A stretch of 64,000 nucleotides of DNA from a virus (Duplodnaviria > Heunggongvirae > Uroviricota > Caudoviricetes). Shown here one piece after another: positions 19,409 to 43,193 of the stretch (position 1 is its first letter; each line of letters starts with the position of its first letter). The translations under genes were made by a program, and so were the position numbers. The stretch is from IMG/VR virus record IMGVR_UViG_3300033076_000972, positions 43,329-107,328 of that record; one strand, given 5' to 3'. Below the pieces are notes generated by a model, which saw nothing but the letters and a program-made list of their open reading frames with translations, did no database searches and was not told where the DNA came from.

Positions 19409-20105
19409 ATGTATATAAAACAGTATTAACCCATCGTTTTGTTTCATCACCACCTAATAAAAGATAATTTAATTTATCTTTTGTTGATTCTGAAATTAAA
19501 TTATTATTTAATAATTCGCTCAACTCCATAATCATTTTTTCAGTAAATGGTACTCTATTATAAAGGTTTTTTATTGTTGATAAATTTTCTGTAATTTTAT
19601 TTTTTTTAGCTTCGTATAATATTTTACCTGCCAAATTTACTAATTTAATTGGTGGTAAAAACTCAACAGACTCTTTTCTTGGTTTATAAGATGAATATAC
19701 AGGTGTTTGTCCTTTACCTGATTGAGTATCTTTCTTTTCAGCCTTTCTTTTTTTAGCACACGCTGATTTTTTTTGTGAATCACTCATTTTAGATGCCACA
19801 CTTTTTGCTCTACACTTAGGATACCCTTTCGGGTCAGCATCAGGTCTTCCGCATGGTGGATGTTTTCCATCAACTTTTCTGCAAATATTAACCCAAGGCC
19901 CCTGTGGTTGTTTTGACCCTTTTGGTTTTTTCTTAGTACCAAACCATACCGCCAAATCTTCATTAAGAATATCTTCGACTTGTACTTTATTATTATTCAT
20001 TTTTTTACGATTATTATATAAATATCTAATTATGATTAATAACACACAAAAACTATTTGATTTTTTACAGTATAATTCTAATGAAGAGTTTGAAAAGATA
20101 ATCAA
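19392..20105 (-). CDS. Basic Lys-rich hypothetical protein
   Basis: ORF; its stop lies inside the terminator hairpin. Confidence 0.45.
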   Translation of the reverse strand: MIIFSNSSLELYCKKSNSFCVLLIIIRYLYNNRKKMNNNKVQVEDILNEDLAVWFGTKKKPKGSKQPQGPWVNICRKVDGKHPPCGRPDADPKGYPKCRAKSVASKMSDSQKKSACAKKRKAEKKDTQSGKGQTPVYSSYKPRKESVEFLPPIKLVNLAGKILYEAKKNKITENLSTIKNLYNRVPFTEKMIMELSELLNNNLISESTKDKLNYLLLGGDETKRWVNTVLYTLKKGS

Positions 20106-20259
20106 CTCAATAGAAAAAGAACAATCTTTATTTTATATAATACAAGGAATTAAATCAGCATATAAGAGGGGTTGTTTTACTTTAGAAGAATCCGAAATTA
20201 TTTCAAAATCTATCCGTGTGTTAAGTACACCTGAAAAACCAAAAACTGAAGAAGCATAA
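20032..20259 (+). CDS. Small hypothetical protein
   Basis: 75-aa ORF, not antisense to any other gene, followed immediately by a terminator. Confidence 0.35.
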   Translation: MINNTQKLFDFLQYNSNEEFEKIINSIEKEQSLFYIIQGIKSAYKRGCFTLEESEIISKSIRVLSTPEKPKTEEA

Positions 20260-20290
20260 AAAAAAGGGACAATTTCTTGTCCCTTTTTTA
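20258..20290. terminator. Bidirectional intrinsic terminator
   Basis: AAAAAAAAGGGACAATTTCTTGTCCCTTTTTT. Confidence 0.7.
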
Positions 20291-20306
20291 TTACCTTTAG
20301 AAAAGA

Positions 20307-22136
20307 TTATCTCAATTCTCTCAAGTCAAACGTTCTAACGCCATCAACTGTGATTTTACCGTAGAAACGGTTGTTCACCATCTTCTTAGCGTATCTTGTC
20401 ATGATACCTTTGATAGGTGTGAAGTTGAATGGGTTATACATTGTTGGAGTTAATTGTAATGGTACGTATGGTGCGTACACATAACCTGTATCTAACAACG
20501 AGTTACCTTTGTGACCCAACAATACTGTGTTTGGTGGGAAATAAGGGTCTCTGTAAACTTGGTATCTACCAGCCAAAGTACCAACTCTTTCAATACCCAT
20601 GTTGTATTGGTCTTGCTCAGGAGCTGCATTTGATACGTGGAAGTATTCCAAATCATCAAAGATTGCACTGATTTCAGAAGAAACAACAATCCAGTTAGCT
20701 CCACCTCTCAATGTTGATTTGTGGATTTGTGCTGAAATTTGGTTGATTGCTGTAATCAATGTTTGGTTCCAATCTTTTTGAGTGTATTGTGTTAATGGAT
20801 TAGCAGATGTACCTCTCTTCCATCCGTTGTAATCCCATCTCAATGACCATGCCGCACCTTTTCTCAAATCTCTCAAGATTTCTCTGTCGATTTCAGCCGC
20901 AACTTGCTCAGACAATAAAGCTGTCAATTCAGCTTCAGCGTCGATGTTGTGGAATGCTGCAACGTCTTGTGCCATTTCAGGTGACCATTGAGCTCTTAAT
21001 TTTCTTTCAGTTACAGAAACTGTTACTGACTGAAGGTCAAATGATACTTCACCAATTTTATCTTCAAATTCTAACTCTTCGTATCTTCTCCAAGTCGCCA
21101 AGAAAGGAGCTTGAGCCAAAGTACCAATTGTTTGAGTTGTGAAACCTGAATAACCATCTAATGAACCTGCACCAATAGCACATGGTACTTGAGTGTCAAC
21201 TTCTAAGTAGATGATACCTTCTTGACTACAGATATTATCATAAGTACCACCGTTACCTAATGAATCAAATGTAGCTGTTGATTGTGTACCATATTGTACT
21301 ATACCTTTACCGTATTTTTGAGTAACAACTCTAAACAACAATGGACCAGTACCTAAAGAAGTACCGTTAGTTGTTCCTGTGAATCCGTTACCTGCCAAAC
21401 CAGTACGAACTGTGATTTGTAATGAAGATAAGAATTCTTCAGTATCCATTTCGTTACCGCTTGGGCCAATTAATTTACCTTCACCAGCAGTTGCAAAACC
21501 TGACATAGCAAGTAATACTTTTCTATATTCAGTTGTTTGTGTGTATGCACTAGGTACTAAATCAGAACCACTCCATGCAACTGTACCACAGTTAGAAGTT
21601 TCAGCACTGAATCTACCTTTTGAGTAGTCAAATAAACCTGGTGGGTCTAATGCTGGTTCGTTACCTTCGTAGAATCTGTCATACAAATTCTTGTCAGTAG
21701 CTTGGTTGTAACCTGCAGTTGCAGATGCTGGACCGTTTGGTGCTCCATAAGGTGCGTAGTGTGTACCACCCGCAGTTGGGTCAGTCAAGTTAGGGTCGTA
21801 AGCCTGAATTTTAGGTACGAAGTAGAACAATTTACCGATAGGTAAGTTCATTGCTTGTACAGAAACGATGTCGTTAGCTAACAACTTAGAGAAAACTCTT
21901 CTTACGATTGGAAATACAACCGTTTCGAAAGAACCGTCTGAAGATGTAGTAGCAGCTTCGTTGATTAAGTGTGATGCTTGGTTTTCATAAAGTTGAGCGA
22001 TGTTTTCTTTAACATGACCTCTCAAACCTTCCAAGAATCCTAATTTGTCCCATTTGTTAATAGTATCTTCTTTGATAACTTTAAGGTGCTTAAGACCGAT
22101 GTTACCAACAAGACCTGATTCTAATAATGCTCCCAT
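20307..22136 (-). CDS. Major capsid protein candidate
   Basis: 609 aa with strongly biased, high-expression codon usage. It is the last gene of the terminase-portal-protease-scaffold series and sits immediately after the acidic scaffold gene. Confidence 0.65.
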   Translation of the reverse strand: MGALLESGLVGNIGLKHLKVIKEDTINKWDKLGFLEGLRGHVKENIAQLYENQASHLINEAATTSSDGSFETVVFPIVRRVFSKLLANDIVSVQAMNLPIGKLFYFVPKIQAYDPNLTDPTAGGTHYAPYGAPNGPASATAGYNQATDKNLYDRFYEGNEPALDPPGLFDYSKGRFSAETSNCGTVAWSGSDLVPSAYTQTTEYRKVLLAMSGFATAGEGKLIGPSGNEMDTEEFLSSLQITVRTGLAGNGFTGTTNGTSLGTGPLLFRVVTQKYGKGIVQYGTQSTATFDSLGNGGTYDNICSQEGIIYLEVDTQVPCAIGAGSLDGYSGFTTQTIGTLAQAPFLATWRRYEELEFEDKIGEVSFDLQSVTVSVTERKLRAQWSPEMAQDVAAFHNIDAEAELTALLSEQVAAEIDREILRDLRKGAAWSLRWDYNGWKRGTSANPLTQYTQKDWNQTLITAINQISAQIHKSTLRGGANWIVVSSEISAIFDDLEYFHVSNAAPEQDQYNMGIERVGTLAGRYQVYRDPYFPPNTVLLGHKGNSLLDTGYVYAPYVPLQLTPTMYNPFNFTPIKGIMTRYAKKMVNNRFYGKITVDGVRTFDLRELR

Positions 22137-22171
22137 TTTTTAAAATATTTAGTTTGTTTTTAGTTTATTTT

Positions 22172-23452
22172 TTATTTATTCATTTTTGACATAAGGTCCT
22201 TCATTCTTAAGAATTGTGGATTTTCATATGTCTTGTTTTCAACCAAATTAGTTGAACCTTTAGATGGTGTTCTATCAATGTTTTCAACGATAGATTCTTT
22301 AACCATTGGTTTTTCAACTGAACCTAATTCATCTTTAATAGTTTGATAAAGATTTTTAGATTCTTTGATTGTTTCGACGTTGTCAAAACGTCTCATAATA
22401 TTTATTTTTTCTTGTTTTGTAGTTGTATGTTCTGTAAACAATCTTGTTGCGTAAGCCAAGTTAGAATTGAAAACAGCTACTTCATTTAATTTTTCTCTGA
22501 AAATATTTAATGCTTTTCTGTATTCTTCATTTTTAGCTCTCAACTTTTCAACTTCTTCTTGTAAAGCGTCATTTGTAATAACTTTCATTTTTGGAAGACC
22601 TTTTCTTTTTGGGAAATTTCTACTTCCATTACCTAAAGTTCTTGCTGCTTCTTTTGTTTCAGTTTCTTTTGTTTCAACTTCATCTTCTTCACCTTCCTTG
22701 AACTCAAATTTCTTAGGACCTTTGAAACTTTCTTTGTGTTGTTTCATGTCTTCTTTAAAACCTTTCATGTTCACTTTACCTGAAGGAGTTTCAGATTTAG
22801 CTTTTCCCATACCCATACCTTTTGGTTTAACCATCATACTAGATTCCGTTACTGTTGATTCATCTTGTTGGTCGTCATCATCGTCATCGTCATCGTCGTC
22901 ATCATCTTCACCTAATTCAATTTCATAAACAATTTCCTCATCAATTGATTCATCCATATCATCATCTTTATCGTCATCATCTGACTCTTCTAATGATTCC
23001 ATCATGTCTTCGTCTTGGAAAGTAATTTTGTCTACATCTAAATCGTCACCAGTCTTTTTAATGATTACACCGTCATTATCGCCCATACCATCAAGTACTG
23101 CCATAATTTCTTCCATAGATGCTCCCGTCATATCTAACGGTTCTAGTTCATCATCATCTTCCATTCCCATGTTGTCCATGTTCATAGAATCTGAATCATC
23201 AGACATATCATCACCCATAGGTTCTTCAATGCCCATAACCTCCAATGAATCTTCATCTTCAGTAACTTCCTCGTTACTCCAAGATTCATCTTCAGTGCTC
23301 TTCTCAGCCTCTTCAAGAGACTCTTTTACTAACTCTTCGATTTCTTCCTTCATTGTAGAAGCAAGTATTCCCTTTGCGTTTTCGGTAACAACCTGTTCCA
23401 AATTTTTCATTTGTAACAATGCTTCCTCAACTAATGATTTTTTTTCGCTCAT
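22172..23452 (-). CDS. Scaffolding / prohead core protein (highly acidic)
   Basis: Long Asp/Glu runs (D13 and others), a coiled-coil C-terminus, and a position immediately upstream of the capsid gene. Confidence 0.55.
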   Translation of the reverse strand: MSEKKSLVEEALLQMKNLEQVVTENAKGILASTMKEEIEELVKESLEEAEKSTEDESWSNEEVTEDEDSLEVMGIEEPMGDDMSDDSDSMNMDNMGMEDDDELEPLDMTGASMEEIMAVLDGMGDNDGVIIKKTGDDLDVDKITFQDEDMMESLEESDDDDKDDDMDESIDEEIVYEIELGEDDDDDDDDDDDDQQDESTVTESSMMVKPKGMGMGKAKSETPSGKVNMKGFKEDMKQHKESFKGPKKFEFKEGEEDEVETKETETKEAARTLGNGSRNFPKRKGLPKMKVITNDALQEEVEKLRAKNEEYRKALNIFREKLNEVAVFNSNLAYATRLFTEHTTTKQEKINIMRRFDNVETIKESKNLYQTIKDELGSVEKPMVKESIVENIDRTPSKGSTNLVENKTYENPQFLRMKDLMSKMNK

Positions 23453-23533
23453 TTTTTGTGCAATAAAATATTTTTATTTACACTATAAATATGCCCTTAA
23501 TCAAAAAAATCTTAAATGGTGATATAAATAAAA

Positions 23534-23559
23534 TAAAAAAACCCGATTTCTCGGGTTTT
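23534..23559 (-). terminator. Intrinsic terminator
   Basis: CCCGATTTCTCGGG hairpin flanked by A and T runs. Confidence 0.5.
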
Positions 23560-23562
23560 AAG

Positions 23563-23772
23563 TTAATCAAAAACTTCGTCAATTTTACTTTCACTGACTG
23601 ACGTTATTCGCCAATCGTGTTGAAATCCTGTAAACTTTTTTGTTACTTTGGCTTCAACATCTGTTACACTGTAACCTTTAACCAATTTTTCTTCTCTTAC
23701 TTTTTTGATTTTTCCTGAGTTCTCATCAATCAAATCATACTGAATTTTTGCTACAAAATATTTTTCGTCCAT
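23563..23772 (-). CDS. Small hypothetical protein
   Basis: 69-aa ORF. Confidence 0.4.
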   Translation of the reverse strand: MDEKYFVAKIQYDLIDENSGKIKKVREEKLVKGYSVTDVEAKVTKKFTGFQHDWRITSVSESKIDEVFD

Positions 23773-23782
23773 AATAATAATT

Positions 23783-24505
23783 TTATCTATATCCCAAAAA
23801 ATCGTTCAATTTTCCCATTAAGTCAAGCGATTTACCCAAACCACCATCAATTCTTCCTTCTTCTTTTGATTTTTTTTCTTCTTCAAGATTTTCATCGTAT
23901 TTGTGACGGTCATCTTTATTAAGGAATAGATATGCACCAGGAGTGGACGGATTCATAACCAAGTCAAAACAAATCATTTCATAATCTTCTTGGACTTCGT
24001 TGTGTTCACCTTTTTTTGCCAATGAACCAACACCACGTGAAGATACACCCATAGTAACACCTTGTCTCATTAAGTTTGCTGCAACATCTCCTTTAGATGA
24101 TACAACACCTCTTTCGTGAAAACCTGGTGTTGTTAACAATCTTAGTTTACCCATAAGAACATTATCATCCCACCAAATATCATCAATAATGTGTGACACT
24201 CTATCTAAATCAATTAAAGATGATTCAGGGTGATTTAATTCTGAGGTTGCTAAACCTTTAGCAATTGTTTTCTTATATTTTTCAGCTTCTCTTTTAAGAA
24301 TCTTTTCAGGGTATACACGACCATTTCTATTTGGTACACCATACTTTTGTAATGTTGCATAAAATACAAATGGTTTAGAATGGTCTAATTGTGTTTTTTG
24401 TTCATTAACAAAATCATTATCTACGGCATTTTTCATAGATATATGACCTGCATCATATTCTATTAATATTCCTTTACCTATTTCATTCGGTTTGAGTATC
24501 TTCAT
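23783..24505 (-). CDS. Prohead maturation protease candidate
   Basis: Sits between the portal-side genes and the scaffold, as T4 gp21 does. Contains His- and Ser-bearing segments (NHPESS, GVSSRGVGS). Confidence 0.35.
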   Translation of the reverse strand: MKILKPNEIGKGILIEYDAGHISMKNAVDNDFVNEQKTQLDHSKPFVFYATLQKYGVPNRNGRVYPEKILKREAEKYKKTIAKGLATSELNHPESSLIDLDRVSHIIDDIWWDDNVLMGKLRLLTTPGFHERGVVSSKGDVAANLMRQGVTMGVSSRGVGSLAKKGEHNEVQEDYEMICFDLVMNPSTPGAYLFLNKDDRHKYDENLEEEKKSKEEGRIDGGLGKSLDLMGKLNDFLGYR

Positions 24506-24528
24506 ATCAAAATATTTATTGATAAATA

Positions 24529-24987
24529 TTAAGAAATCTCAAAGTTTTTATTTTTTAACTTGCTTTTAGAATATTGAATAGTAAAATATTTTGTTTTCTC
24601 TAAAACATTATCATGAACTTCCTTTAAAATACGATTAAGTTCTTTTGATAATTCATCTGATTTGAAGTCGATATCTTGTTTGGTAAAAAAAGTTATTTCA
24701 AGATTTAGAAAACTTGCCTTGTCAACTTTAATTCCACTTGTTCTTAAATCTAAATCAACTATAAAATGTTCTCTAAATAATGACTTATTATATATTTCTA
24801 AAATTTTATGTTTAATACTTCGAGATATTGTACCCACGACTCTTTCCCAATTATCTCTTTCTTCGGTTGGTTTTACCCATGTTTGTAATACTAAATAAAT
24901 TGATTTTAATTCTGTAGCATCTACACTACCATAATAACATTTAGCATCTTGGAATAAATCCAATTTTGATGTTTTCCCTTTTTTCAT
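24529..24987 (-). CDS. Hypothetical protein
   Basis: ORF. Confidence 0.45.
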   Translation of the reverse strand: MKKGKTSKLDLFQDAKCYYGSVDATELKSIYLVLQTWVKPTEERDNWERVVGTISRSIKHKILEIYNKSLFREHFIVDLDLRTSGIKVDKASFLNLEITFFTKQDIDFKSDELSKELNRILKEVHDNVLEKTKYFTIQYSKSKLKNKNFEIS

Positions 24988-25098
24988 TCTTTTTCATTTG
25001 TGTAATGTTTATTTCTTAGTAAAAATATACTAAAAAAAAACTTATTAACAAATTTATTTTTTTTCCTATATTTATATCAATAACACATATTTTTTTAT

Positions 25099-25293
25099 AT
25101 GATAAAAATTATTATTCAAAAGGGTGAAAGTTTAGATAAAGCCTTAAAACGTTACAAGTACAAAGTCATCAAAACAAAACAAATTGAAGAACTTCGTGCA
25201 AGACAAGAGTTTGTTAAAAAAACAACTGTCAAAAGGGAACAAATGAAAAAGGCTAAATACAAACAACAAATAGCTCAAAGTAACATTGACTAA
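25099..25293 (+). CDS. rpsU: Ribosomal protein bS21
   Basis: MIKIIIQKGESLDKALKRYKYKVIKTKQIEELRARQEFVKKTTVKREQMKKAKYKQ matches the bS21 signature (KALKRFKRK…ELRxRQ(Y/F)(F/Y)xKP-like), has the right length (64 aa), and is Lys/Arg-rich. Confidence 0.8.
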   Translation: MIKIIIQKGESLDKALKRYKYKVIKTKQIEELRARQEFVKKTTVKREQMKKAKYKQQIAQSNID

Positions 25294-25320
25294 TATTTAT
25301 TGGTAACAAATACCAAGAAT

Positions 25321-25560
25321 ATGAAAAACTTTATCATGAATTTACTAGGAAACGGTTCAGACGTTTCATCAAAAAGATTTGCATCTTTATTCACTTTATT
25401 AAACGTAATTATTTTAGCATATGTTGCAACATTTACATCTAAAGATGGTGTAACACCTGAATATATGTTTGATGCACTTTGTTTAATCGCTGGTGGTGGA
25501 TTGGGTCTTACAGTTGTTGAGAAGATTTTCTCAAAAGGTTCAGACAAAAAAGCTGAATAA
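25321..25560 (+). CDS. Small membrane protein
   Basis: Two hydrophobic helices, a terminator directly downstream, and co-transcription with rpsU. Confidence 0.45.
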   Translation: MKNFIMNLLGNGSDVSSKRFASLFTLLNVIILAYVATFTSKDGVTPEYMFDALCLIAGGGLGLTVVEKIFSKGSDKKAE

Positions 25561-25561
25561 C

Positions 25562-25591
25562 AAAAAACCCCTCTTTTGAGGGGTTTTTATT
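25562..25591. terminator. Bidirectional intrinsic terminator
   Basis: AAAAAACCCCTCTTTTGAGGGGTTTTTATTTT. Confidence 0.7.
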
Positions 25592-26317
25592 TTAAAGTCC
25601 TTCTGACAACTTTTTAAGTTTGTAGTATGATAATGAATCAATTGGTGTTGATTCAATCCTCATTTTTGTCTCATTTAATTTCTTATTGGTATCTTCGTCA
25701 CTTTCATTAATATTTGAAAGTTTTCCTAAAACTTCAACCTTTAATCTTTCAATACCTTCTGTCAATTCTTCTTGTGACATTCTTAATATTGATTTTAACT
25801 CAAATAACTCAGATTCACTTAATTGTGAATATTCTTTTGCAAATGTGTCAGCAGCCACACCAAACATTGATTCTAATGGGATGTTAACAGATTCCGTAAT
25901 TGTTGATTCCTCTTTTGTTTCAGTCATTAACTTCCACATTTGTTTTCTTGATTCAACTAATTTAATAAAATCATCAGCTGTTTTTGCAAAAATCATATTA
26001 TCTAATAACTCATATTGATTTTCAACACCTTCACCTAAAGTTTCCACCCAAGCATCAAATTGTTCAAATTCACGTTTGTTGTTATTGATTGTTGATTTAA
26101 TGTTATCAACTGAAAGTCCTAAAAATTCTTTAGCAACTTCCTCGTTCAATCCTTTAGTTTTCATTAAAGTACCGTACTCAACGTATAGTTCACCTACGGC
26201 TTTATTATCTTTAATGAAATCTCTAAATTCTTTTATAATTTGTTTGAAATCTTCAGTTTTATATGTTTTAACCAAAGAATTTTCAACAATACTTTTTAAT
26301 AATCCAAAATTTCTCAT
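25592..26317 (-). CDS. Hypothetical protein (prohead core protein position)
   Basis: ORF between the portal and protease candidates. Confidence 0.4.
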   Translation of the reverse strand: MRNFGLLKSIVENSLVKTYKTEDFKQIIKEFRDFIKDNKAVGELYVEYGTLMKTKGLNEEVAKEFLGLSVDNIKSTINNNKREFEQFDAWVETLGEGVENQYELLDNMIFAKTADDFIKLVESRKQMWKLMTETKEESTITESVNIPLESMFGVAADTFAKEYSQLSESELFELKSILRMSQEELTEGIERLKVEVLGKLSNINESDEDTNKKLNETKMRIESTPIDSLSYYKLKKLSEGL

Positions 26318-26330
26318 ATCAATAAATATC

Positions 26331-28169
26331 TTAACTATTTAATAGTTCATTTAATTTAGTTTCAATCTCATTAATTGAAGTTCTACCTTTTGATAAATCG
26401 ATTTCATCTCTTCCGCTAATTAAATCATCTTCCAAAATTAAATTCAAATCATTCATTCTACTTTCAGGTGTAACCTCACCTCCTGCTGGTGGTTCAGGTG
26501 TCTCAGGTGCTTCAGGAGCTCCACCTTCTTCAGGTCCTCCTCCTAATCCACCTAAACTACTCATACCTCCTGATGGTGGTCCTCCACCCATTTCTTCACC
26601 TTCTGCTGGCGGTGTTGCAACCTCACCAGGTTTTTTACCGTATAATCTATCAATGTTATCAAATATACCTGTATGAATAATAACCTCAGGTGTTTTTTGT
26701 AATTCAGCTCCAACCGCTTTTTCAATTCTTTGTTGTTGGATATCCAATTTGATTTCTTCGTCAGAGAATCCAAGAATATGTTTTTTAGCCCATGTTGTTG
26801 ATACCGCCTGAATACCATTACCAGGGTCAGCAACCGCATCTTTATAAAGAAGAATTTTTTCTTTCCAATTCTCAATCTTTAACAAATCTGCTTGAGTTGA
26901 TGGGTTTGTTAATCCTAATGTAAAGTTTGTTAATTCATCTTCAAAACCAAGTATAAATAAGTGAATAATTGCAATCTTATTTAATTCTTGAATCATTGAT
27001 TTTTGAATTCTATTAATTGTTCTTGCAAAACGAATATCTTGTAATGCTAAGTTCTTCCCATCACCAACAACCTCTTCAAAACCTAAGAATGCTTTTGGTA
27101 CACGAAGAGCTGTCAATAATTTCTTTTGGATATATTCAATATCCGCAATTTCAGAAAGGTTTTGCGCTCCCGCTAAAGTTTCAATTGGACTTGTTTGTGC
27201 TGGGTCACGAACAGGGATAAAATAATCTTGGTCAACCGCCATTTGGTTCATACGTAAATCTACGTTACCTGTCTTTGAGTCAACAACTTGGTCTCTCTTA
27301 AACTTATTGGCAATTCTTTGGATATATGGTTCGACATCCTTATCATCCATATTACCAACATAAACTTTAAATACACGTCTTTCAGGTGCTCTTGATGTTC
27401 GATAAACCAACATCGCATCTTCAGATAATAATAATTGTTTCCAAGTACGTCTTGCTTTTTCCAACATTGATGTACCATAAGGAAGTTTTCTATCATCACC
27501 TAACAAACGGAAATGTGCTACCTCCCAAGTGTTCATTTCCATATCTTTTACTTTCCATACGAATTTCAAAGATTTGGCATCTTCAACAGTATTGTGAGCA
27601 GGTTTGATTTTCATACCACGTTCCAAACGTTCAATTTCAATATTTGGAAGTTGTTGACAACCCATAATACCCTTTTCAGAGTCTAATTTTAAATAAACGA
27701 AGTTATCACCGTACTTACATGTGTTTCTTGTCCACATAGGTAAGTTAGTGTTAATATCCAATCTGTTATTAAATAAATCCGCTAATATTCCCTTAATTCT
27801 ATTTGATTCAGAATAGATTTGTAAAATAAACCCATCTTCATTTGTTGTTGTAGATTCCTCAGCGTAGATATCAAGAGCGGCAGAAATCTCAGGGGTATAT
27901 TCCATACTCTCGTAATCGTAGTATGATGCCAATCTTGTTGGTTCGTAATAAATTGCTTGAGAATATAAATTATTTTCAATCTTACCCCACTGTTGACCAA
28001 GATACATTGTTTGTTGAGCTTGGAGTTTTTCCTTCTCGTATTCTTGTTTGTCAGTGGTTTTTAATAATTCTTTTTTGTCAAATTTATATACTGGAGGCTG
28101 TTGACCCAAAGTTGAGTCGGGACCAAAGACTTTTGTAAGTCGTTGCCATATGGTTAAATTATCTGCCAT
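26331..28169 (-). CDS. Portal protein candidate
   Basis: 612 aa, immediately downstream of the large terminase, with a Gly/Pro/Glu-rich disordered region and a C-terminal tail. Confidence 0.55.
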   Translation of the reverse strand: MADNLTIWQRLTKVFGPDSTLGQQPPVYKFDKKELLKTTDKQEYEKEKLQAQQTMYLGQQWGKIENNLYSQAIYYEPTRLASYYDYESMEYTPEISAALDIYAEESTTTNEDGFILQIYSESNRIKGILADLFNNRLDINTNLPMWTRNTCKYGDNFVYLKLDSEKGIMGCQQLPNIEIERLERGMKIKPAHNTVEDAKSLKFVWKVKDMEMNTWEVAHFRLLGDDRKLPYGTSMLEKARRTWKQLLLSEDAMLVYRTSRAPERRVFKVYVGNMDDKDVEPYIQRIANKFKRDQVVDSKTGNVDLRMNQMAVDQDYFIPVRDPAQTSPIETLAGAQNLSEIADIEYIQKKLLTALRVPKAFLGFEEVVGDGKNLALQDIRFARTINRIQKSMIQELNKIAIIHLFILGFEDELTNFTLGLTNPSTQADLLKIENWKEKILLYKDAVADPGNGIQAVSTTWAKKHILGFSDEEIKLDIQQQRIEKAVGAELQKTPEVIIHTGIFDNIDRLYGKKPGEVATPPAEGEEMGGGPPSGGMSSLGGLGGGPEEGGAPEAPETPEPPAGGEVTPESRMNDLNLILEDDLISGRDEIDLSKGRTSINEIETKLNELLNS

Positions 28170-28206
28170 CCTTTAAAATATAGTATCTTTTTTTTATGAA
28201 TAAACT

Positions 28207-29976
28207 TTATCTTCTACCGAATAACCATAAATACTGTTCATAATCCTTTTTTGTTGGATTTGATGAAAAAGTATCATTATGACTTGATGGTGATAAAACA
28301 GGAATACCAGGATGAAATTGTGTTATTTCTCTGTTTGTACTATCATCGGCAACAGTCCAAGAACTTAACATGGCTTTAGTTTGTTCATTAACTTTTTCAA
28401 GTTGATTATAAGCGTTTTGACCTACATATAAAGCCATTGATATTGACATAATTAAATCATCATGATGTCCTTTCATGTGGTCAGGTCTTCCGTTCATATA
28501 CACAAACGTATTCATTTCACCAAGTAATCTTTGTGAATACAATTTAAATCCGTGTCTTAAAGCTTCCTCAAATGCTGATATAATTTGAACCCTTTTACTG
28601 TTGAAGTTAATACCTGGTATTTTTTCGTTTGACTTAACTGTTGATTCCCAAATATTTCCATAATTGATACCATCAACATATAAATTTTTATATCCCATTT
28701 CTTGTAACTTTCTTGATGTAGATACACCCATACCACCTGTGATATCAATTACAATAAATGCATCATAATAATTTCCCCACTTATATGCAATTTCAGCTGC
28801 AACATCAGGAGGTAGTTTTCCAACATATTCAGCAACTTGTTCTCTTTCATCAAAATCAATAACTTGAAACGATGTAAAGTCTTCTGAATCACCTCTTGAT
28901 ACGTCCATACCCATAATGTATCTGTGTCCAACAACTGGTTCTTTCCAAATCCACAATTGATTCTGAACCATCTTTGATTCAGGATGACGAACCATTTCAG
29001 TTCTAATTTTGTCGGTTAATTGTGCGTCAAACACGTTATCACCTGAACCCAAAAAGTTACATTCCAATTCCTGAGAAATTTTTCTCTTATCAAACTTTAA
29101 CTTTTTAGCCATGGTTTCAAACCAAGTAGAACTTACTTTGTAACCATCATCCATCAATTTTTTAAACTCATCAAAATTTCTCTCACTTTGTGGAATACCT
29201 TCATAACTTATAATTTCAGGGTTAGGATATTCTTCACGATTCAAAAAATAATGTATAATATCTTTAACCTTAATAAAATATAAATCTTTAGTATATCTTG
29301 GGTCTCTCCACCAAAACATTTCAGTAATCTTGAAATTATTCATCGCCTTTACAGCTTGTTCATAGATACTGTAATAAATTGCGTCATATCCATTCGGTGT
29401 GGAAATAACAATAACTTTACCACCTGTAGAAAGTGAAGCCATACAAGCTGCCCAGAAATCATCACCAGCCTCAATATACGCCGCCTCGTCAAATATTAAC
29501 ACGGTAGGGGTATAACCACGAAGTGCGTCATTTGACGTTGCAACGGCTTTAACCTCACAACCATTACTTAATTTCCAATGTCGAGCAGCATTTTTTTCGG
29601 TGGAAAATGTAACTCCCATCCATGCTGGCCATTGTTCTGTAAATTGTTTAATTTTATTTGCAAATTCAACAGATGTATCTAACTTGTTTGCAATAATCAA
29701 AATTTTCTCAGGTTTTTCTTTTTTAGCAAAAACCAATTTTTTTGAACTCCAAGCAGCAGTTACTGTTGATACACCCGCTTGACGATACTTTAAAGCAATG
29801 TTTTCTTCGTAGTTGTCATAATCTTCAACTAACTGAATTTGGTCGGCAAATAAATCTAAGGGAACGTATTTTGACTGTGTATTGTCATACGTTTGTAGAT
29901 ATGTTCTTAAAGCATATGGTGTGTTTCTTACACACTTGGCATATTCTATAAGGGCTTGTTCTTTTGTGATACTCAT
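28207..29976 (-). CDS. terL: Terminase large subunit
   Basis: N-terminal ATPase with a Walker A-like YRQAGVST and Walker B VLIFDEAAY. A C-terminal nuclease-sized domain is present; total 589 aa. Confidence 0.8.
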   Translation of the reverse strand: MSITKEQALIEYAKCVRNTPYALRTYLQTYDNTQSKYVPLDLFADQIQLVEDYDNYEENIALKYRQAGVSTVTAAWSSKKLVFAKKEKPEKILIIANKLDTSVEFANKIKQFTEQWPAWMGVTFSTEKNAARHWKLSNGCEVKAVATSNDALRGYTPTVLIFDEAAYIEAGDDFWAACMASLSTGGKVIVISTPNGYDAIYYSIYEQAVKAMNNFKITEMFWWRDPRYTKDLYFIKVKDIIHYFLNREEYPNPEIISYEGIPQSERNFDEFKKLMDDGYKVSSTWFETMAKKLKFDKRKISQELECNFLGSGDNVFDAQLTDKIRTEMVRHPESKMVQNQLWIWKEPVVGHRYIMGMDVSRGDSEDFTSFQVIDFDEREQVAEYVGKLPPDVAAEIAYKWGNYYDAFIVIDITGGMGVSTSRKLQEMGYKNLYVDGINYGNIWESTVKSNEKIPGINFNSKRVQIISAFEEALRHGFKLYSQRLLGEMNTFVYMNGRPDHMKGHHDDLIMSISMALYVGQNAYNQLEKVNEQTKAMLSSWTVADDSTNREITQFHPGIPVLSPSSHNDTFSSNPTKKDYEQYLWLFGRR

Positions 29977-29993
29977 CCCTTATAAATACTCCG

Positions 29994-31325
29994 TTACTTG
30001 GTTGGCGGAGTATCTATACCTAAATCGCTTAGGAAACTTAGGTCAATATCATCGTCATCATCGTCTTTTGACGGATAACCCATAGTATCGTCATCATCAT
30101 CTTCCTCATAGTTTGAACTACCCAAAATTTCTTCCAAATCTTGTTTATTAAGTTCATCAATGATTTGGTCGGCAATACGTTCCATTTCAGTATACGCAGT
30201 TGCATCACCTTTATTAACTCTTTGTGCTAAAGATGTGAATTTGTTTTTTGGTAATTTAGAAAATTCTCTAAAAATTAAACTCTGAACAATTTTCATGTTA
30301 TCTTCTAAAACTTTTGCAGGATATGATTCTAACAATTTTTCCCATAAATAAGTTCCTGTGATGATATCAAAAATTTCATTTACTAATGTATCTGCGGTTT
30401 GTTTAACCATTTGAGCCTGAATTGGGTCAGTAGGTAAAGAAGCGGCTCCTAATATATCGTAATAACCTTTAATTAATTCATGAACTAAGATTGGAAACAT
30501 AACCGCCTTTGCTTTAACAACAAAGTTACCTGTATATTCACCATCCTCATCTTGCTCCATTTCAATCTCTTCAGAACCACCCATATTTTGTCCTGATGCA
30601 GCCATTTGTTGAACCATTTGTGGTGGTAATAACCAATACAAATAATCATTCATAGCCATCAAAGCTCCATATTTGTCAGTAATACCAGGTTCCATCTCTT
30701 CTAACCCATCTCTAATTAATTCAAACATAAAATGACCTTTTTTAGCTGCTCCTTGAATAATTGCGTTCATAAATCTACGTTTAGCAACCATGTAATCGAA
30801 GTTTTCAAACGCATCTACAAATTCTTCCAAATCCTCACCAGAATCCTCAAACGCTAATTCAATATCTTCTGATGAAAATTCTTCAGGTTCTGCTTGGAAA
30901 TTTTCATTTCCTGTTTCACCCATCCCAACTAACTTAGGGTCAAATTTAATAAATTCGGCATATTTTGGGTCAACTAACTCTTTAGAAACTAAGTCTTTTG
31001 CCATTTGTTCAAGTTGTTCTTTTCTTGAACTTTCAAATTGCATTACTTCACCAAAAAGTCTCATCATCATCATTTGAAGACCACCCATGTTGTTAGGTAC
31101 ATTCATACCCAAATATCTTTCAAGTTTTGAAACAACATCTCTAAATCTTTTTGAAGCTGCAATCTCCTCAAATGATTGTCTATCACCTTCACCTTTCTTT
31201 GGTATAAAAGGACTGTTTGAAAGTGGCGTTTCACCTCTTTCAATAGCTCTTTTTAAATCAGGGTTCATTCTAAAACCACCTGGCTCATCAATAGGAGCTT
31301 CAAATATATTATTCTTGTTTTTCAT
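29994..31325 (-). CDS. Hypothetical protein with an acidic C-terminus
   Basis: 443-aa ORF ending in EEDDDDDTMGYPSKDDDDDDIDLSFL. Confidence 0.45.
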   Translation of the reverse strand: MKNKNNIFEAPIDEPGGFRMNPDLKRAIERGETPLSNSPFIPKKGEGDRQSFEEIAASKRFRDVVSKLERYLGMNVPNNMGGLQMMMMRLFGEVMQFESSRKEQLEQMAKDLVSKELVDPKYAEFIKFDPKLVGMGETGNENFQAEPEEFSSEDIELAFEDSGEDLEEFVDAFENFDYMVAKRRFMNAIIQGAAKKGHFMFELIRDGLEEMEPGITDKYGALMAMNDYLYWLLPPQMVQQMAASGQNMGGSEEIEMEQDEDGEYTGNFVVKAKAVMFPILVHELIKGYYDILGAASLPTDPIQAQMVKQTADTLVNEIFDIITGTYLWEKLLESYPAKVLEDNMKIVQSLIFREFSKLPKNKFTSLAQRVNKGDATAYTEMERIADQIIDELNKQDLEEILGSSNYEEDDDDDTMGYPSKDDDDDDIDLSFLSDLGIDTPPTK

Positions 31326-36132: not shown

Positions 36133-38217
36133 ATGATTGAATCACAAGACCAAAACGAAAAAATGGGTGGAAACCGAAAAGGTAAAACAGATACTATTAA
36201 CTCTAAAACACCGGTTTTAGATAATTTTTCTCGTGACCTTATTAAGTTAGCCAAAGAAGGTAAACTTGACCCTGTAATCGGTAGAGAGCATGAGATTGAA
36301 AGGTTGGCTCAAATTATATCAAGAAGAAAGAAAAACAACCCTATTCTTATAGGTGAACCTGGTTGTGGTAAAACCGCAATTGTTGAAGGTTTAGCAATGA
36401 AGATTTTTCAAGGGGATTGTCCACAAAATTTAATAGATAAACGAATTGTAAGTTTAGATATGACTTCTATTGTTGCTGGTACAAAATATCGTGGACAGTT
36501 TGAAGAACGTATTAAAGTTATTTTGGATGAATTAAGTGATAACCATGATGTTGTTGTGTTTATTGATGAAATACACACCATTATTGGTGCTGGTAATTCA
36601 TCAGGTTCATTAGACGCATCAAATATCTTCAAACCAGCTCTTGCACGTGGAGAACTCCAATGTATTGGTGCCACCACATTAGATGAATACCGTGAACATA
36701 TTGAAAAAGATGGTGCGTTAGAACGTCGTTTCCAAAAAGTTCACGTTGACCCAACATCAATTGAGGATACAATTAAGATTATGTACCGTGCTAAAGAAAA
36801 TTATGAAAAACATCATAAGGTTCATTTTAGTGATGAGGTAATCAAAACTTGTGTTATCTTGGCAGACCGTTATATTACTGACCGTGAGTTTCCAGATAAA
36901 GCAATTGACATTATGGATGAAGTTGGCGCAAGATGTCAAATCAATGTAACAGTTCCTGAAATTATTGAAAAACTTAAAGAAGAAGCGAACCAAATAAAAG
37001 AACGTAAAGTTGAAGTAGTTAGAAGTCAAAAATATGAAGAGGCTGCCGAACTACGTGATATGGAACGTAAAGTGTTGAGTCGTCTTCAAGAAGAAAAAGA
37101 AAAGTTTGAAAAGGAACGTTTAACCAATAAAAAAGAAGTTAGTGAGGAAATGGTTTATGAAGTTGTTGCTCAAATGACAAAAATTCCAATTTCAAAACTT
37201 TCACAATCTGAATCAGAATCATTGATTAATTTGGAAGAAAATTTAACAATGTCTGTTATTGGTCAAGAAGATGCTGTGTCTAAAATATCAAGAGCAATTC
37301 GTAGAAACCGTGTTGGAATTAAAGACCCAAACAAACCAATTGGTTCATTTATTTTCTTGGGTTCAACAGGTATTGGTAAAACACATTTGGCAAAACAATT
37401 GGCTAAAGAAATTTTTGGTAGTACAGATGCGTTGATTCGTGTTGACATGTCAGAATACCAAGAAAAGTTTACTATGACTAGATTGGTTGGTTCTCCTCCA
37501 GGTTACGTTGGTCACCAAGAAGGTGGACAATTAACTGAACAAGTTAAGAACAAACCTTATTGTGTTATTTTATTTGATGAAATTGAAAAGGCACACAAAG
37601 ATGTATATTCATTGTTACTTCAAGCAATGGATGAAGGTCACTTAACTGACGGACTTGGTAGAAAGATTAATTTCAAAAACACATTGATTATTATGACATC
37701 TAACATTGGCGCCAGAAAAGTTCAAGATTTTGGAACAGGTGTTGGTTTTGGTACTCGTTCTAAAAATGAAAAAGAAAGTGAGATTAAACAAATGATGGTT
37801 GAAGATGAACTTAAGAAATTTTTCCCACCTGAATTTTTAAACCGTGTTGATGATGTTATTTTCTTTAATCCACTTAAAGAAGAAGAAATTAAACAAATTG
37901 TTTCTTTGGAAATTTCAAAACTTACAACACGTTTGAAATCTATGAATTATGATATTGCAATTGGTGAGTCTTTAATCAAACAAATTTCTGATATTGGTTT
38001 TGATGAGAAATTTGGAGCTCGTCCAATCAAAAGAGCAATCCAAAATCAAATCGAAGATTTTATCTCTGATGAAATTTTAAAGAAGAATATTCTTCCTGAC
38101 ACAGTTTATTTCTTGGACTTTGTAGATGACAAGGTCCAAATAAATGAAAAAACATCAGAGTTACCTGATGTTTCAGAAAAACCAAAAAGGGGTAGAACAA
38201 AAAAAGGGGTCAATTAA
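36133..38217 (+). CDS. clpC: ClpC/ClpA-like two-ring AAA+ unfoldase that lacks the Clp_N domain and has a VGF ClpP-docking loop
   Basis: D1 carries GEPGCGKTA and [13 protein letters not shown] motif ([15 protein letters not shown]) sits in the linker. D2 carries [12 protein letters not shown] and [12 protein letters not shown]. The segment [10 protein letters not shown] contains the (I/V)GF tripeptide, and the sensor-2 GARP(I/L)KR is present. Confidence 0.9.
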
Positions 38218-38230: not shown

Positions 38231-39068
38231 AATCCCATAACATCCATCGTTCAGTTTTAGGTTTGTGTTCGTGGAATGTGTTACCCAAACTTTCAATCAT
38301 TTGTTTAACCATTTCAATTGCGTTGAACACATCTTCAATAACAACATACTCATTTGGTGTGTGGTAATTGTAATAACCACAAGATACATTCAAACAAGCA
38401 ATGTTAAATTTTGATGCAATTTGTGAAACGTCGGTGTACGGGTGTTTCATCAATTCATGTTTGTCTCCAAAATGTTCTTGAAGCAAAGGTCCAACCTTTT
38501 CAAAGAAAGGTGAATTACGGTCAAAAAGTTTTACACCCCAACAATATTCAGTTACCATCCAAGATTCGGGAGCATCAAACTGAATGCAGTAACCAACGTT
38601 AGAGAAAAACTCAGGACTTGCTTTTCTTGAACCATGACAACCTGTTTCTTCAGATACGAAGAAAGCGGCTTTAATTACTGGTAGTTGTTCAAGGAGATTC
38701 AAACATGAGTAGACACCACATTTGTCATCACCACCAATTCCTGTTGGGTGACCAGTCACAGCCTGGTAAGCCTTAAAAGAATCTTTTAGTTCCCCATAAA
38801 CATTTGGGAGTTGTTCTTCCTCTACAACCATTTCGGTAATCGAGTGTACGGTGTCCGTATGTGAAATTACACAAGGATAGATATCCGCATCACCTTTAGT
38901 GACATAAACGTTACCAAACTCATCGATTGTGTGGTTGTATCCTTTTTCAGTAAAATACTTGTCAAGATACTCAATCATAAGAGTTTCTTGATAAGTTTTA
39001 GTCGGAATAGAAAGGACTTCTTTTAGGTGTTGTATTTTTTCTGGTGTCATTTGACCACAAAGATACAA
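38229..39068 (-). CDS. M20/M28-like zinc metallopeptidase (short form)
   Basis: Metal-ligand motifs are ISHTDTVH (H-x-D), GIGGDDKCG (G-x-x-D-D-K-G) and SEETGCHGS (EE-G). Confidence 0.5.
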   Translation of the reverse strand: MYLCGQMTPEKIQHLKEVLSIPTKTYQETLMIEYLDKYFTEKGYNHTIDEFGNVYVTKGDADIYPCVISHTDTVHSITEMVVEEEQLPNVYGELKDSFKAYQAVTGHPTGIGGDDKCGVYSCLNLLEQLPVIKAAFFVSEETGCHGSRKASPEFFSNVGYCIQFDAPESWMVTEYCWGVKLFDRNSPFFEKVGPLLQEHFGDKHELMKHPYTDVSQIASKFNIACLNVSCGYYNYHTPNEYVVIEDVFNAIEMVKQMIESLGNTFHEHKPKTERWMLWD

Positions 39069-39076
39069 AAAATATT

Positions 39077-41227: not shown

Positions 41228-41246
41228 TATAAATAAATACTTTGAT

Positions 41247-41277
41247 TTGGCAGTTTGAGATAATATTTATATCTTTG
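41247..41277 (+). promoter_or_regulatory. Bacteroidetes-type sigma-A promoter (TTG-N20-TATCTTTG) upstream of the tmRNA
   Basis: TTG at 41247-41249 and TATCTTTG at 41270-41277 match the Bacteroidetes -33/-7 consensus TTG / TAnnTTTG. Confidence 0.5.
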
Positions 41278-41771: not shown

Positions 41772-41800
41772 AGTGGTCAAATTTGACCACTTTTTTTTTT
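41772..41800 (+). terminator. Intrinsic terminator after the tmRNA
   Basis: AGTGGTCAAATTTGACCACT hairpin followed by T10. Confidence 0.75.
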
Positions 41801-43179: not shown

Positions 43180-43193
43180 ATTACACAGAGTAT

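What the first reader, a model, noticed from the sequence alone, without database searches (positions are those of the whole stretch)
25099..25560. Ribosomal protein bS21 gene inside the capsid morphogenesis block, on the opposite strand
A 64-aa ORF has the bS21 signature (…ALKRYKYKV…ELRARQEF…) and is followed by a small membrane protein and a terminator. It sits on the + strand inside a - strand structural operon. Viral bS21 genes have been reported mainly from phages of Flavobacteriia and marine SAR11. The gene adds to the host inference. The placement between the portal and protease genes suggests late expression. Together with the tmRNA, the tRNA gene and the RNA ligase, it suggests the phage acts on the host translation apparatus.
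Basis: partly seen in the sequence, partly recalled or inferred. Interest (0 to 1): 0.55.

Follow-up and report, generated by a model that had tools for sequence, protein, structure and literature searches.

The report
Phage-encoded ribosomal protein bS21 gene
A large phage of Bacteroidota bacteria carries its own well-conserved copy of the small ribosomal protein bS21, on the opposite strand inside its head-assembly genes; the gene is real, but a 2022 paper already described the same arrangement in closely similar lake phages.

Summary
ORF 25099-25293 (+) encodes a 64-aa bS21. It scores above the curated cut-offs of PF01165 and TIGR00030. A 79-aa two-helix membrane protein gene and a bidirectional hairpin terminator follow it. 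The cassette lies between the protease and portal genes, which are on the - strand.

All 88 related phage loci keep the gene at this position and on the opposite strand. All 87 complete copies are intact, and dN/dS is about 0.14. The protein is Bacteroidota-type: its best solved relative is Flavobacterium johnsoniae bS21, and Tyr54 is invariant.

Host signals agree with Bacteroidota. One protein carries a T9SS sorting domain, start codons lack Shine-Dalgarno sequences, and Bacteroidota-type promoters occur elsewhere in the window.

Chen et al. 2022 (ISME Commun) described the same gene order and strand in lake phages and showed late transcription. The finding is therefore already known.

Small additions from this work:
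- A promoter-like 8-mer, [AG]TATTTAT, precedes bS21, the protease, scaffold, orf241 and TerL genes.
- The phage gene lacks the strong SD leader that autoregulates host rpsU.
- A related phage holds the membrane gene alone at the same position, so the cargo there varies.

The tmRNA and RNA ligase are real. No tRNA gene was found.

The parts
25068..25075 (+). Promoter-like 8-mer ATATTTAT, 23 nt upstream of the bS21 start codon
   Evidence: The motif [AG]TATTTAT occurs 33 times in the window. Fifteen copies lie within 45 nt upstream of a start codon in the gene's orientation, against 4 in the reverse orientation. Shuffled upstream windows give 1.7 +/- 1.3. The motif is kept upstream of bS21 in 28 of 30 distinct upstream sequences from related loci.
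25099..25293 (+). bS21 (rpsU homologue), 64 aa
   Evidence: PF01165 at 40.3 bits, TIGR00030 at 39.7 bits and phrog_21469. The best solved relative is F. johnsoniae bS21, 7jil_z, E 1.3e-12. The ORF is intact in 87 of 87 relatives, and dN/dS against close relatives is 0.08-0.24.
25293..25300 (+). Second copy of the 8-mer (ATATTTAT). It overlaps the last base of the bS21 stop codon and ends 20 nt upstream of the membrane-protein start
   Evidence: It is kept in 9 of 11 distinct upstream sequences of the membrane gene in relatives.
25321..25560 (+). Small two-helix membrane protein of unknown function, 79 aa (74 aa from the ATG at 25336)
   Evidence: A hydropathy scan gives two hydrophobic segments, about residues 19-37 and 48-66. 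dN/dS is 0.00-0.12. The profile search finds more than 3000 relatives, none with a Pfam domain. Pfam, PHROGs and NCBIfam give no significant hit.
25563..25588 (.). Bidirectional intrinsic terminator between the convergent bS21/membrane unit and orf241
   Evidence: The terminator scan hits on both strands. Most related clades keep an A-tract, hairpin and T-tract here, with different stem sequences, at -13 to -20 kcal/mol.
24988..25098 (.). Divergent control region between orf152 (-) and bS21 (+)
   Evidence: Several blocks are conserved across all clades. A sigma-70-like element on the - strand (TTGTTA-16-TATATT, 25051-25024) sits about 36 nt upstream of orf152 in 28 of 34 distinct sequences.
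24529..24987 (-). orf152, the conserved neighbour transcribed divergently from bS21. By position it corresponds to fam32/fam656 of Chen et al.
   Evidence: It is syntenic in all 88 loci and has no family hit. The correspondence comes from the context table of PMC9723584.
25592..26317 (-). orf241, the conserved neighbour convergent with bS21. By position it corresponds to fam20/fam498, called 'bS21_CN' by Chen et al.
   Evidence: It is syntenic in all loci. The 8-mer lies 4 nt upstream of its start in the window and is kept in 32 of 32 distinct upstream sequences. Position.

Best explanation
This is a functional phage copy of ribosomal protein bS21. It is carried by an uncultured T4-like myophage of Bacteroidota, most likely Flavobacteriia.

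Shown here:
- It forms its own small transcription unit on the opposite strand, with its own promoter-like 8-mer, a short A/U-rich leader that has no SD, and a bidirectional terminator.
- The unit sits at a position between the protease and portal genes where the inserted genes vary between phages.
- The same 8-mer precedes the protease, scaffold, orf241 and TerL genes.

Inferred, with published RNA data for syntenic phages:
- The gene is switched on together with the head genes, late in infection.

Inferred from established knowledge: bS21 is a late-assembling, exchangeable 30S protein, and in Bacteroidota its Tyr54 holds the anti-SD tail of 16S rRNA away from mRNA.
- The phage protein occupies the bS21 site on host 30S subunits. 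It keeps them fully loaded and in the SD-independent mode that the SD-less phage mRNAs need.
- The phage mRNA lacks the strong SD through which host rpsU is translated by bS21-free ribosomes. Its synthesis should therefore escape host feedback.
- By filling bS21-free subunits, it should also reduce synthesis of host bS21.

Unresolved: whether the phage-specific surface (residues 21-30, and the loss of Pro5 and Pro41) also biases ribosomes towards phage mRNAs.
For: Identity. The ORF exceeds the curated cut-offs of PF01165 and TIGR00030. The best solved relative is F. johnsoniae bS21: same length, 28 of 59 aligned residues identical, E 1.3e-12. Tyr54 is present in 36 of 36 distinct phage proteins.

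Function under selection. All 87 complete copies are intact. There are 41 distinct DNA sequences. Median dN/dS is 0.14, and synonymous sites are saturated between clades while the proteins stay 62-92% identical.

Fixed position and strand. All 88 phage loci keep them, and the gene order is the same as in Chen et al. 2022.

Own unit and co-regulation. The 8-mer is enriched upstream of starts, 15 copies against 1.7 +/- 1.3 expected. It is conserved upstream of bS21 (28/30), orf241 (32/32), protease (29/29) and scaffold (24/25), but not upstream of DUF4494, MCP or orf152. This matches the transcription units that Chen et al. saw in RNA maps. The terminator is kept with different stems. Chen et al. 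found late co-transcription with the capsid genes.

No SD. Duplex energy between the 30 nt upstream of the start and the anti-SD is -4.2 to +1.0 kcal/mol for the 32 distinct phage upstream sequences examined. It is -13.2 kcal/mol for Algibacter rpsU. McNutt et al. 2023 show that such strong SDs autoregulate rpsU through bS21-free ribosomes.

SD-less phage genes. Only 6% of the 69 window genes have an upstream SD-like match, against 20% at internal control sites.

Host signals. A CHU_C T9SS sorting domain is present. The TTTG-N17-21-TAnnTTTG promoter pattern occurs 15 times against 5.9 +/- 2.3 expected. The nearest cultured relatives by portal include a Flavobacterium phage.

Incorporation into ribosomes. 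This has been shown for a different phage bS21, from HTVC008M, expressed in E. coli (Mizuno et al. 2019).
Against: The role of the 8-mer as a promoter is inferred, since no transcription start sites are available. In 9 of its 15 upstream copies in the window it lies only 4-5 nt from the start codon, which would also fit a translation signal. The phage protein departs from cellular Bacteroidota bS21 at conserved positions. The KPS hinge is KKT, Pro5 is lost, the Ile55 contact is Lys in the window, and the C-terminal part is more basic, at +4 against +1 in Algibacter. It may therefore not bind exactly like the host protein. Ribosomes carrying HTVC008M bS21 were nearly inactive in an E. coli system. 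The Foldseek matches to bS21 chains are not significant, with E of 0.2 or more.
Confidence: 0.6

Rival explanations
1. Specialised ribosomes. The phage bS21 replaces the host protein, and its divergent N-terminal helix makes ribosomes prefer phage late mRNAs over host mRNAs. This is the hypothesis of Chen et al. 2022 and Mizuno et al. 2019.
For: The anchoring features are kept: Tyr54 and the ALKRYK core. A contiguous patch differs from three Bacteroidota bS21 proteins in all or nearly all of the 36 phage proteins: V23, I24, Q28, I29, E30, K8 and K41. Chen et al. flagged positions 21, 23, 25 and 28 as significantly divergent and placed them where mRNA would lie. The patch is under purifying selection within phages.
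Against: There are no data on mRNA preference. Phage and host mRNAs are both SD-less, so the feature that would be discriminated is unknown. Related phages that lack bS21 manage without it: immuto, the L096 locus and the outgroups of Chen et al.
Confidence: 0.3
2. A role off the ribosome. The protein acts as a free RNA-binding protein, or is packaged into the head because of where its gene sits, and is injected to act early.
For: The gene sits among the head genes. Chen et al. raise packaging as a possibility. Extraribosomal roles for bS21 exist, for example in the OLE ribonucleoprotein (title).
Against: The residues that anchor bS21 to 16S rRNA are the conserved ones. No proteomic data exist. 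The opposite strand and the separate terminator argue against it being simply part of the head operon.
Confidence: 0.07
3. A recently captured host gene, or a decaying passenger gene with no role.
For: Ribosomal protein genes are occasionally picked up by phages.
Against: The gene is intact in 87 of 87 copies across clades whose synonymous sites are saturated, and dN/dS is 0.14. The closest cellular proteins found are only 38-47% identical, so the capture is old.
Confidence: 0.01
4. The host is SAR11 or another non-Bacteroidota bacterium, and the gene reflects that lineage.
For: GC content is low, about 31%. Pelagiphage HTVC008M carries a bS21 gene. A sigma-70-consensus element lies upstream of orf152.
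Against: No Pelagibacter phage appears among the tblastn hits at E <= 1e-3. The best solved match is the Bacteroidota type, with Tyr54. The window also has a T9SS CHU_C domain, SD depletion and Bacteroidota-type promoter patterns.
Confidence: 0.03

Closest known systems
bS21-encoding freshwater Bacteroidetes myophages, clades a-e (Chen et al. 2022, ISME Commun 2:31, PMC9723584)
   Same: The gene order and strand are the same: TerL, portal, a hypothetical gene (fam20/fam498), bS21 on the reverse strand, a hypothetical gene (fam32/fam656), S77 protease, DUF4494, scaffold, gp23 MCP (compared). GC content is about 31%. Both encode ClpB/chaperone and glycosyltransferase genes. Tyr54 is kept and the divergent positions are the same. 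The predicted host is Bacteroidota.
   Different: The window has an extra small membrane-protein gene after bS21. It has no gene between TerL and portal; some of their genomes have one. The window covers only 64 kb, so the 293-331 kb genome size is unverified.
Cellular bS21 of Flavobacteriia (F. johnsoniae 70S, PDB 7JIL chain z; Jha et al. 2021; McNutt et al. 2023)
   Same: Both are 64 aa. Twenty-eight of 59 aligned residues are identical. The ALKRYK core, K40, R46, K51-A52 and Tyr54 are shared.
   Different: Pro5 and Pro41 (the KPS hinge) are lost. Residues 21-30 are replaced. Ile55 is Lys. There is no strong SD leader, and therefore no rpsU-type autoregulatory element.
Pelagibacter phage HTVC008M bS21 (Mizuno et al. 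2019, PMC6375957)
   Same: It is a phage-borne bS21 in a T4-like myophage. Purifying selection was reported, and ribosome incorporation was shown experimentally.
   Different: It was captured independently from an alphaproteobacterial host. It is not detected by tblastn with this protein at E <= 1e-3.
Microcystis phage Mel-JY01 RpsU (PP395634.1)
   Same: The portal is related (39% identity), and bS21 lies inside the same head block, two genes after the protease.
   Different: The gene is on the same strand as the head genes and at a different position. The protein is of a different type: the KPS motif is kept and there is no Tyr54-type C-terminus. This points to an independent acquisition.
Francisella bS21 paralogues that change ribosome specificity (J Bacteriol 2022, PMC9578407; only the title and abstract were seen)
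   Same: It works in a similar way: swapping one bS21 variant for another changes which mRNAs are translated.
   Different: These are cellular paralogues in a different phylum, not a phage gene.

Membership tests
bS21 / Ribosomal_S21 (PF01165, TIGR00030) | Profile score above the curated cut-off | tested here: met
   PF01165 scores 40.3 bits against a cut-off of 27. TIGR00030 scores 39.7 against 28.95.
bS21 / Ribosomal_S21 (PF01165, TIGR00030) | Small, basic protein of about 55-71 aa with the conserved core (ALKRxK...K-T...LR...K..R..KA) | tested here: met
   The protein is 64 aa. A15, L16, K17, R18, K20, K22, T26, L32, K40, R46, K51 and A52 are shared with three cellular proteins.
bS21 / Ribosomal_S21 (PF01165, TIGR00030) | KPS/T hinge motif between the helices | tested here: not met
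   The motif reads KKT in the window. Pro41 is Lys in 32 and Asn in 4 of the 36 phage proteins.
bS21 / Ribosomal_S21 (PF01165, TIGR00030) | bS21 fold | tested here: inconclusive
   The AlphaFold2 model has mean pLDDT 84 and two helices. Eleven of 13 Foldseek PDB matches are bS21 chains, but all have E of 0.2 or more.
bS21 / Ribosomal_S21 (PF01165, TIGR00030) | Binds the 30S platform next to the 3' end of 16S rRNA | not testable with these tools
   This needs ribosome purification with mass spectrometry, or cryo-EM.
Bacteroidota-type bS21 that sequesters the anti-SD (Jha et al. 2021) | Signature aromatic residue Tyr54, which stacks on A1534 | tested here: met
   Tyr54 is present in 36 of 36 distinct phage proteins.
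Bacteroidota-type bS21 that sequesters the anti-SD (Jha et al. 2021) | Ile55 van der Waals contact | tested here: not met
   The window has Lys55. Among the 36 phage proteins, 26 have K, 6 V, 1 I and 1 Q.
Bacteroidota-type bS21 that sequesters the anti-SD (Jha et al. 2021) | C-terminal part less basic than in other phyla | tested here: inconclusive
   Net charge after residue 42 is +4 in the window and +2 to +7 across the phage proteins. It is +1 in Algibacter and +3 for the partial F. johnsoniae sequence. No comparison across phyla was made.
Bacteroidota rpsU autoregulatory unit (McNutt et al. 2023) | Exceptionally strong SD upstream of the gene (< -13 kcal/mol) | tested here: not met
   The phage genes give -4.2 to +1.0 kcal/mol. 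Algibacter rpsU gives -13.2.
Chen-2022 bS21 phage cassette | bS21 on the reverse strand between the portal-side and protease-side hypothetical genes, inside the TerL...MCP block | tested here: met
   compared with the supplementary context table.
Chen-2022 bS21 phage cassette | Signals of a Bacteroidota host | tested here: met
   A CHU_C T9SS domain at 40.4 bits, SD depletion, the TTTG...TAnnTTTG pattern at 15 against 5.9 expected, and a bS21 nearest to the F. johnsoniae protein.
Chen-2022 bS21 phage cassette | TerL within clades a-e, and a genome of about 300 kb | not tested
Contigs of relatives reach 268,739 bp (L072).
Chen-2022 bS21 phage cassette | Late transcription together with the capsid genes | not testable with these tools
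   Only indirect evidence exists: the 8-mer is shared with the head genes. RNA data exist only for the published relatives.

The most novel reading that the evidence does not exclude
The 8-mer [AG]TATTTAT lies only 4-5 nt before the start codon in 9 of its 15 upstream copies in the window. It might be more than a promoter. It could be a phage-specific translation-initiation signal on very short or leaderless late mRNAs, read by ribosomes whose mRNA-facing bS21 helix has been replaced by the phage version. That would be a protein-mediated substitute for SD pairing in a host that does not use SD.
Probability: 0.05. Interest if true: 0.85.

Novelty: already known. Interest (0 to 1): 0.25.

Why it matters
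Phage-encoded bS21 is the commonest ribosomal protein gene in viruses, and nobody has yet shown what it does during infection. This window is a clean, well-conserved example in the lineage where the question is easiest to test, because F. johnsoniae offers ribosome structures, bS21 depletion strains and in vitro initiation assays. The gene and its placement add nothing new beyond Chen et al. 2022. Two details found here give concrete, testable predictions: the leader has no SD, so the gene should escape host rpsU autoregulation, and it shares an 8-mer with the head genes. The gene also supports assigning this uncultured phage to a Bacteroidota host.

Tried and rejected
- Megablast of 20000-30000 against GenBank phages found no match, so there is no close cultured relative.
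- The T4 late-promoter consensus TATAAATA is not enriched (16 against 10.9 +/- 3.4) and is not oriented with the genes. The copy at 25069 on the - strand is just the reverse reading of the near-palindromic 8-mer, so this reading was rejected.
- The genome-contig scan for cellular relatives returned only two loci, an Algibacter at 45% and a Saprospiraceae MAG at 38%. The scan depends on patterns, so it does not give a phylogeny.
- The structure route failed for this tiny RNA-dependent protein: Foldseek E-values were not significant.
- The membrane protein has no significant Pfam, PHROGs or NCBIfam match. The holin phrog_20 scores only E 0.96 on a 95-aa variant, so a holin reading is unsupported.
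- BLASTP of orf241 and orf152 against the genes at the same positions in phage immuto and Mel-JY01 found no detectable similarity.
- No supplementary-table entry of Chen et al. matched the IMG/VR contig identifiers found here.

Full report
**What is there**

The + strand ORF 25099-25293 encodes a 64-aa protein. It matches Pfam Ribosomal_S21 at 40.3 bits against a gathering score of 27, over almost the whole profile. It matches the NCBIfam equivalog TIGR00030 at 39.7 bits against 28.95, and the PHROG annotated as ribosomal protein S21.

A second + strand ORF follows 28 nt downstream, at 25321-25560, and encodes 79 aa. Other assemblies call it from the ATG at 25336, giving 74 aa. It has two hydrophobic segments. 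An A-tract, hairpin and T-tract at 25563-25588 then scores as a terminator on both strands.

Everything around the cassette is on the - strand:
- gp23-type major capsid protein
- an acidic scaffold-like protein
- DUF4494
- S77 prohead protease
- orf152
- the cassette
- orf241
- T4-type portal
- large terminase

**Is it a real, maintained gene?**

A search of public proteins found 119 relatives. Context look-ups and an IMG/VR scan gave 88 phage loci. All 88 have the order MCP, scaffold, DUF4494, protease, orf152 on one strand, then bS21 on the other strand, then orf241, portal and TerL.

All 87 copies that do not run off a contig are intact ORFs of 62-65 aa. They comprise 41 distinct DNA sequences and 36 distinct proteins. 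Nei-Gojobori dN/dS against close relatives is 0.08-0.24, with a median of 0.14 over 425 usable pairs. Between clades the synonymous sites are saturated, yet the proteins stay 62-92% identical.

**What kind of bS21, and whose?**

Among all solved structures, the best match is bS21 of the Flavobacterium johnsoniae ribosome, 7jil_z, at E 1.3e-12. It has the same length, and 28 of 59 aligned residues are identical. A second 63-aa chain, 9i5v_9, comes next. Firmicutes proteins lie far behind and E. coli further still.

Jha et al. identified Tyr54 as the Bacteroidota signature. It stacks on A1534 and holds the anti-SD tail of 16S rRNA away from mRNA. Tyr54 is present in all 36 phage proteins.

The rest of the window agrees with a Bacteroidota host:
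- A 1513-aa protein ends in a CHU_C type IX secretion sorting domain (40.4 bits).
- SD-like sequences are depleted upstream of the 69 window genes: 6% against 20% at internal control positions.
- The bipartite pattern TTTG-N17-21-TAnnTTTG occurs 15 times against 5.9 +/- 2.3 expected. From my own knowledge, this is the housekeeping promoter consensus of Bacteroidota. The copies include a run of near-identical TATCTTTG elements at 39-52 kb, one of them upstream of the tmRNA.
- The nearest cultured phages by portal protein are a Microcystis phage at 39% and Flavobacterium phage immuto at 38%.

The SAR11 alternative has no support. No pelagiphage appears among the tblastn hits.

**Comparison with the literature**

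Chen et al. 2022 (PMC9723584) describe 47 curated freshwater phage genomes, plus 14 from IMG/VR. Their complete genomes are 293-331 kb with 31-34% GC. [quoted passage not shown]

Their supplementary context table gives the order TerL, portal, fam20, bS21 (strand -1), fam32, Peptidase_S77, DUF4494, fam05, Gp23. This is the order in the window.

They also reported the following:
- Bacteroidetes hosts, with one Flavobacterium CRISPR spacer
- conservation of Tyr54
- significant divergence at positions 21, 23, 25 and 28
- chaperone, Clp and glycosyltransferase genes
- high transcription of bS21 together with the capsid genes

The window has a ClpB-like ATPase and glycosyltransferases too. The finding is thus a further example of a published phenomenon. 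I could not test whether it falls inside their clades a-e.

First, the 8-mer [AG]TATTTAT occurs 33 times in the window. Fifteen copies lie within 45 nt upstream of a start codon in the gene's orientation, against 4 in the reverse orientation. Composition-matched shuffles of the same upstream windows give 1.7 +/- 1.3, with a maximum of 8 in 2000 shuffles.

The motif precedes bS21 by 23 nt and the membrane gene by 20 nt. It also precedes TerL, orf241, the protease, the scaffold gene and several uncharacterised genes.

Across related loci, the motif is kept upstream of some genes and absent upstream of others (distinct upstream sequences):

| Gene | With motif |
|---|---|
| bS21 | 28 of 30 |
| orf241 | 32 of 32 |
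| protease | 29 of 29 |
| scaffold | 24 of 25 |
| DUF4494 | 0 |
| MCP | 0 |
| orf152 | 0 |

This partition matches the transcription units that Chen et al. inferred from RNA read maps: the protease with its downstream gene, and the MCP with its upstream gene. I therefore read the 8-mer as the promoter of a class that includes the head genes, and bS21 as a member of that class. This is inference; no transcription starts are available. The T4 late consensus TATAAATA is not enriched.

Second, the hairpin terminator between bS21 and orf241 is kept in most clades with different stem sequences. bS21 is therefore an insulated unit, not part of one 'structural operon'.

Third, host rpsU in Flavobacteriales carries an exceptionally strong SD that bS21-free ribosomes translate preferentially. 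This gives feedback control of bS21 synthesis (McNutt et al. 2023). The Algibacter rpsU found here has such an SD, at -13.2 kcal/mol. None of the 32 distinct phage upstream sequences examined does; they range from -4.2 to +1.0 kcal/mol. Phage bS21 synthesis should therefore be uncoupled from ribosome occupancy. By filling bS21-free subunits, it should also reduce host rpsU translation. This step is inferred.

Fourth, the phage proteins differ from three Bacteroidota bS21 proteins at a fixed set of positions. Pro5 is lost, Pro41 of the KPS hinge is replaced by Lys or Asn, and K8, V23, I24, Q28, I29, E30 and E47 are phage-specific. Ile55 is Lys in the window.

The 79-aa protein is under stronger constraint than bS21, with dN/dS of 0.00-0.12. 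It belongs to an unannotated family with more than 3000 members. Its link to bS21 is optional:
- The abundant P0071 clade has bS21 alone.
- Some clades carry a 95-100 aa variant.
- A more distant relative, L096 (portal 62% identical), has the membrane gene alone at the same opposite-strand position. It has the same 8-mer and a terminator, and no bS21.
- In other large phages the family sits in unrelated contexts.

Flavobacterium phage immuto has an uninterrupted block from portal to protease, with no gene on the opposite strand. Microcystis phage Mel-JY01 carries a different, non-Bacteroidota-type bS21 on the same strand as its head genes, after the protease.

The position between orf152 and orf241 thus behaves as an insertion point for extra genes, whose content varies between phages. 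Capture of bS21 next to the head genes has happened more than once, as Chen et al. also concluded from their survey.

**Mechanism and confidence**

That the ORF is a functional bS21 homologue of a Bacteroidota phage is close to certain. That it is expressed with the head genes is likely, given the shared motif here and the RNA data for syntenic relatives.

That it enters host 30S subunits is probable. It follows from the exchangeable, late-assembling nature of bS21, from the conserved anchoring residues, and from the HTVC008M precedent. It is not shown for this protein.

Whether it merely keeps ribosomes fully loaded in SD-independent mode or redirects them to phage mRNAs remains open. A search of the held literature from 2023 onwards found no experimental follow-up.

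**Context claims**

- The tmRNA is real: RF00023, 100.8 bits, full length, ending in CCA. ARAGORN misses it.
- An Rnl1-type RNA ligase is at 59283-60317.
- No tRNA gene was detected.

**Verdict**

Interest is low to moderate. It comes mainly from the testable predictions about escape from host autoregulation and about the shared 8-mer.

Noticed in passing
window 41382-41765 (+): A full-length one-piece tmRNA is encoded by the phage (RF00023, 100.8 bits, ending in CCA). ARAGORN does not call it. A Bacteroidota-type promoter pattern, TTTG-N20-TATCTTTG, lies at 41246-41277, just upstream. The tag reading frame was not worked out.
   Followed up: partly
window 39058-39088 (-), 41246-41277, 41798-41828, 42337-42367, 43686-43716, 50333-50363, 51756-51787 (+): A repeated bipartite element, TTTG-N19-20-TATCTTTG, matches the Bacteroidota housekeeping promoter consensus. 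The general pattern occurs 15 times against 5.9 +/- 2.3 expected. Two copies, at 41798 and 42337, sit in almost identical 40-nt stretches just after terminators. These are probably host-polymerase (early) promoters, a different class from the 8-mer in front of bS21.
   Followed up: partly
window, 15 sites including 12842, 17159, 26329 (-), 29989 (-), 35233 (-), 35496 (-), 41240 (-), 45247 (-), 51324 (-): In 9 of its 15 upstream copies, the 8-mer [AG]TATTTAT ends only 4-5 nt before the start codon. If it is a promoter, many late mRNAs would be leaderless or nearly so. If it is not, it could be a translation signal.
   Followed up: partly
window 25051-25024 (-), and the same place in L-loci: A sigma-70-consensus-like element lies about 36 nt upstream of orf152 in 28 of 34 distinct sequences. 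It reads TTGACA-17-TATAAT in the P0071 clade and TTGTTA-16-TATATT in the window. This is unexpected for a Bacteroidota host, whose main sigma factor uses a different consensus. It remains unexplained.
   Followed up: partly
window 53804-58345 (+): A 1513-aa protein has a PKD domain and a C-terminal CHU_C type IX secretion sorting domain. A phage protein that appears to be addressed to the Bacteroidota-specific T9SS is a strong host marker.
   Followed up: no
window 59283-60317 (+): A T4 Rnl1-type RNA ligase (PF09511, 78.9 bits). With the tmRNA, it makes a second RNA- or translation-related function in the window.
   Followed up: no
window 36133-38217 (+); 1266-2906 and 5997-7079 (+): A ClpB-like double AAA+ chaperone and several glycosyltransferases. 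Chen et al. 2022 list the same accessory functions for their bS21 phages.
   Followed up: no
L096 4001-4252 (Logan SRR7244352 contig): A related phage (portal 62% identical) carries only the small membrane-protein gene at the opposite-strand position between the protease and portal sides. It has the same 8-mer and a hairpin terminator, and no bS21. That locus also has an AAA ATPase gene inserted next to the protease.
   Followed up: yes
L095 11557-11784 (Microcystis phage Mel-JY01, PP395634.1): A cyanophage with a related portal carries a different bS21 (PF01165, 45.1 bits; KPS motif kept, no Tyr54-type tail). The gene is on the same strand as its head genes, two genes after the protease. This is an independent capture into the same block.
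   Followed up: partly
window 43164-43703 (+): An HNH endonuclease ORF (PF14279/PF01844) lies in the region rich in host-type promoters, next to the tmRNA.
   Followed up: no
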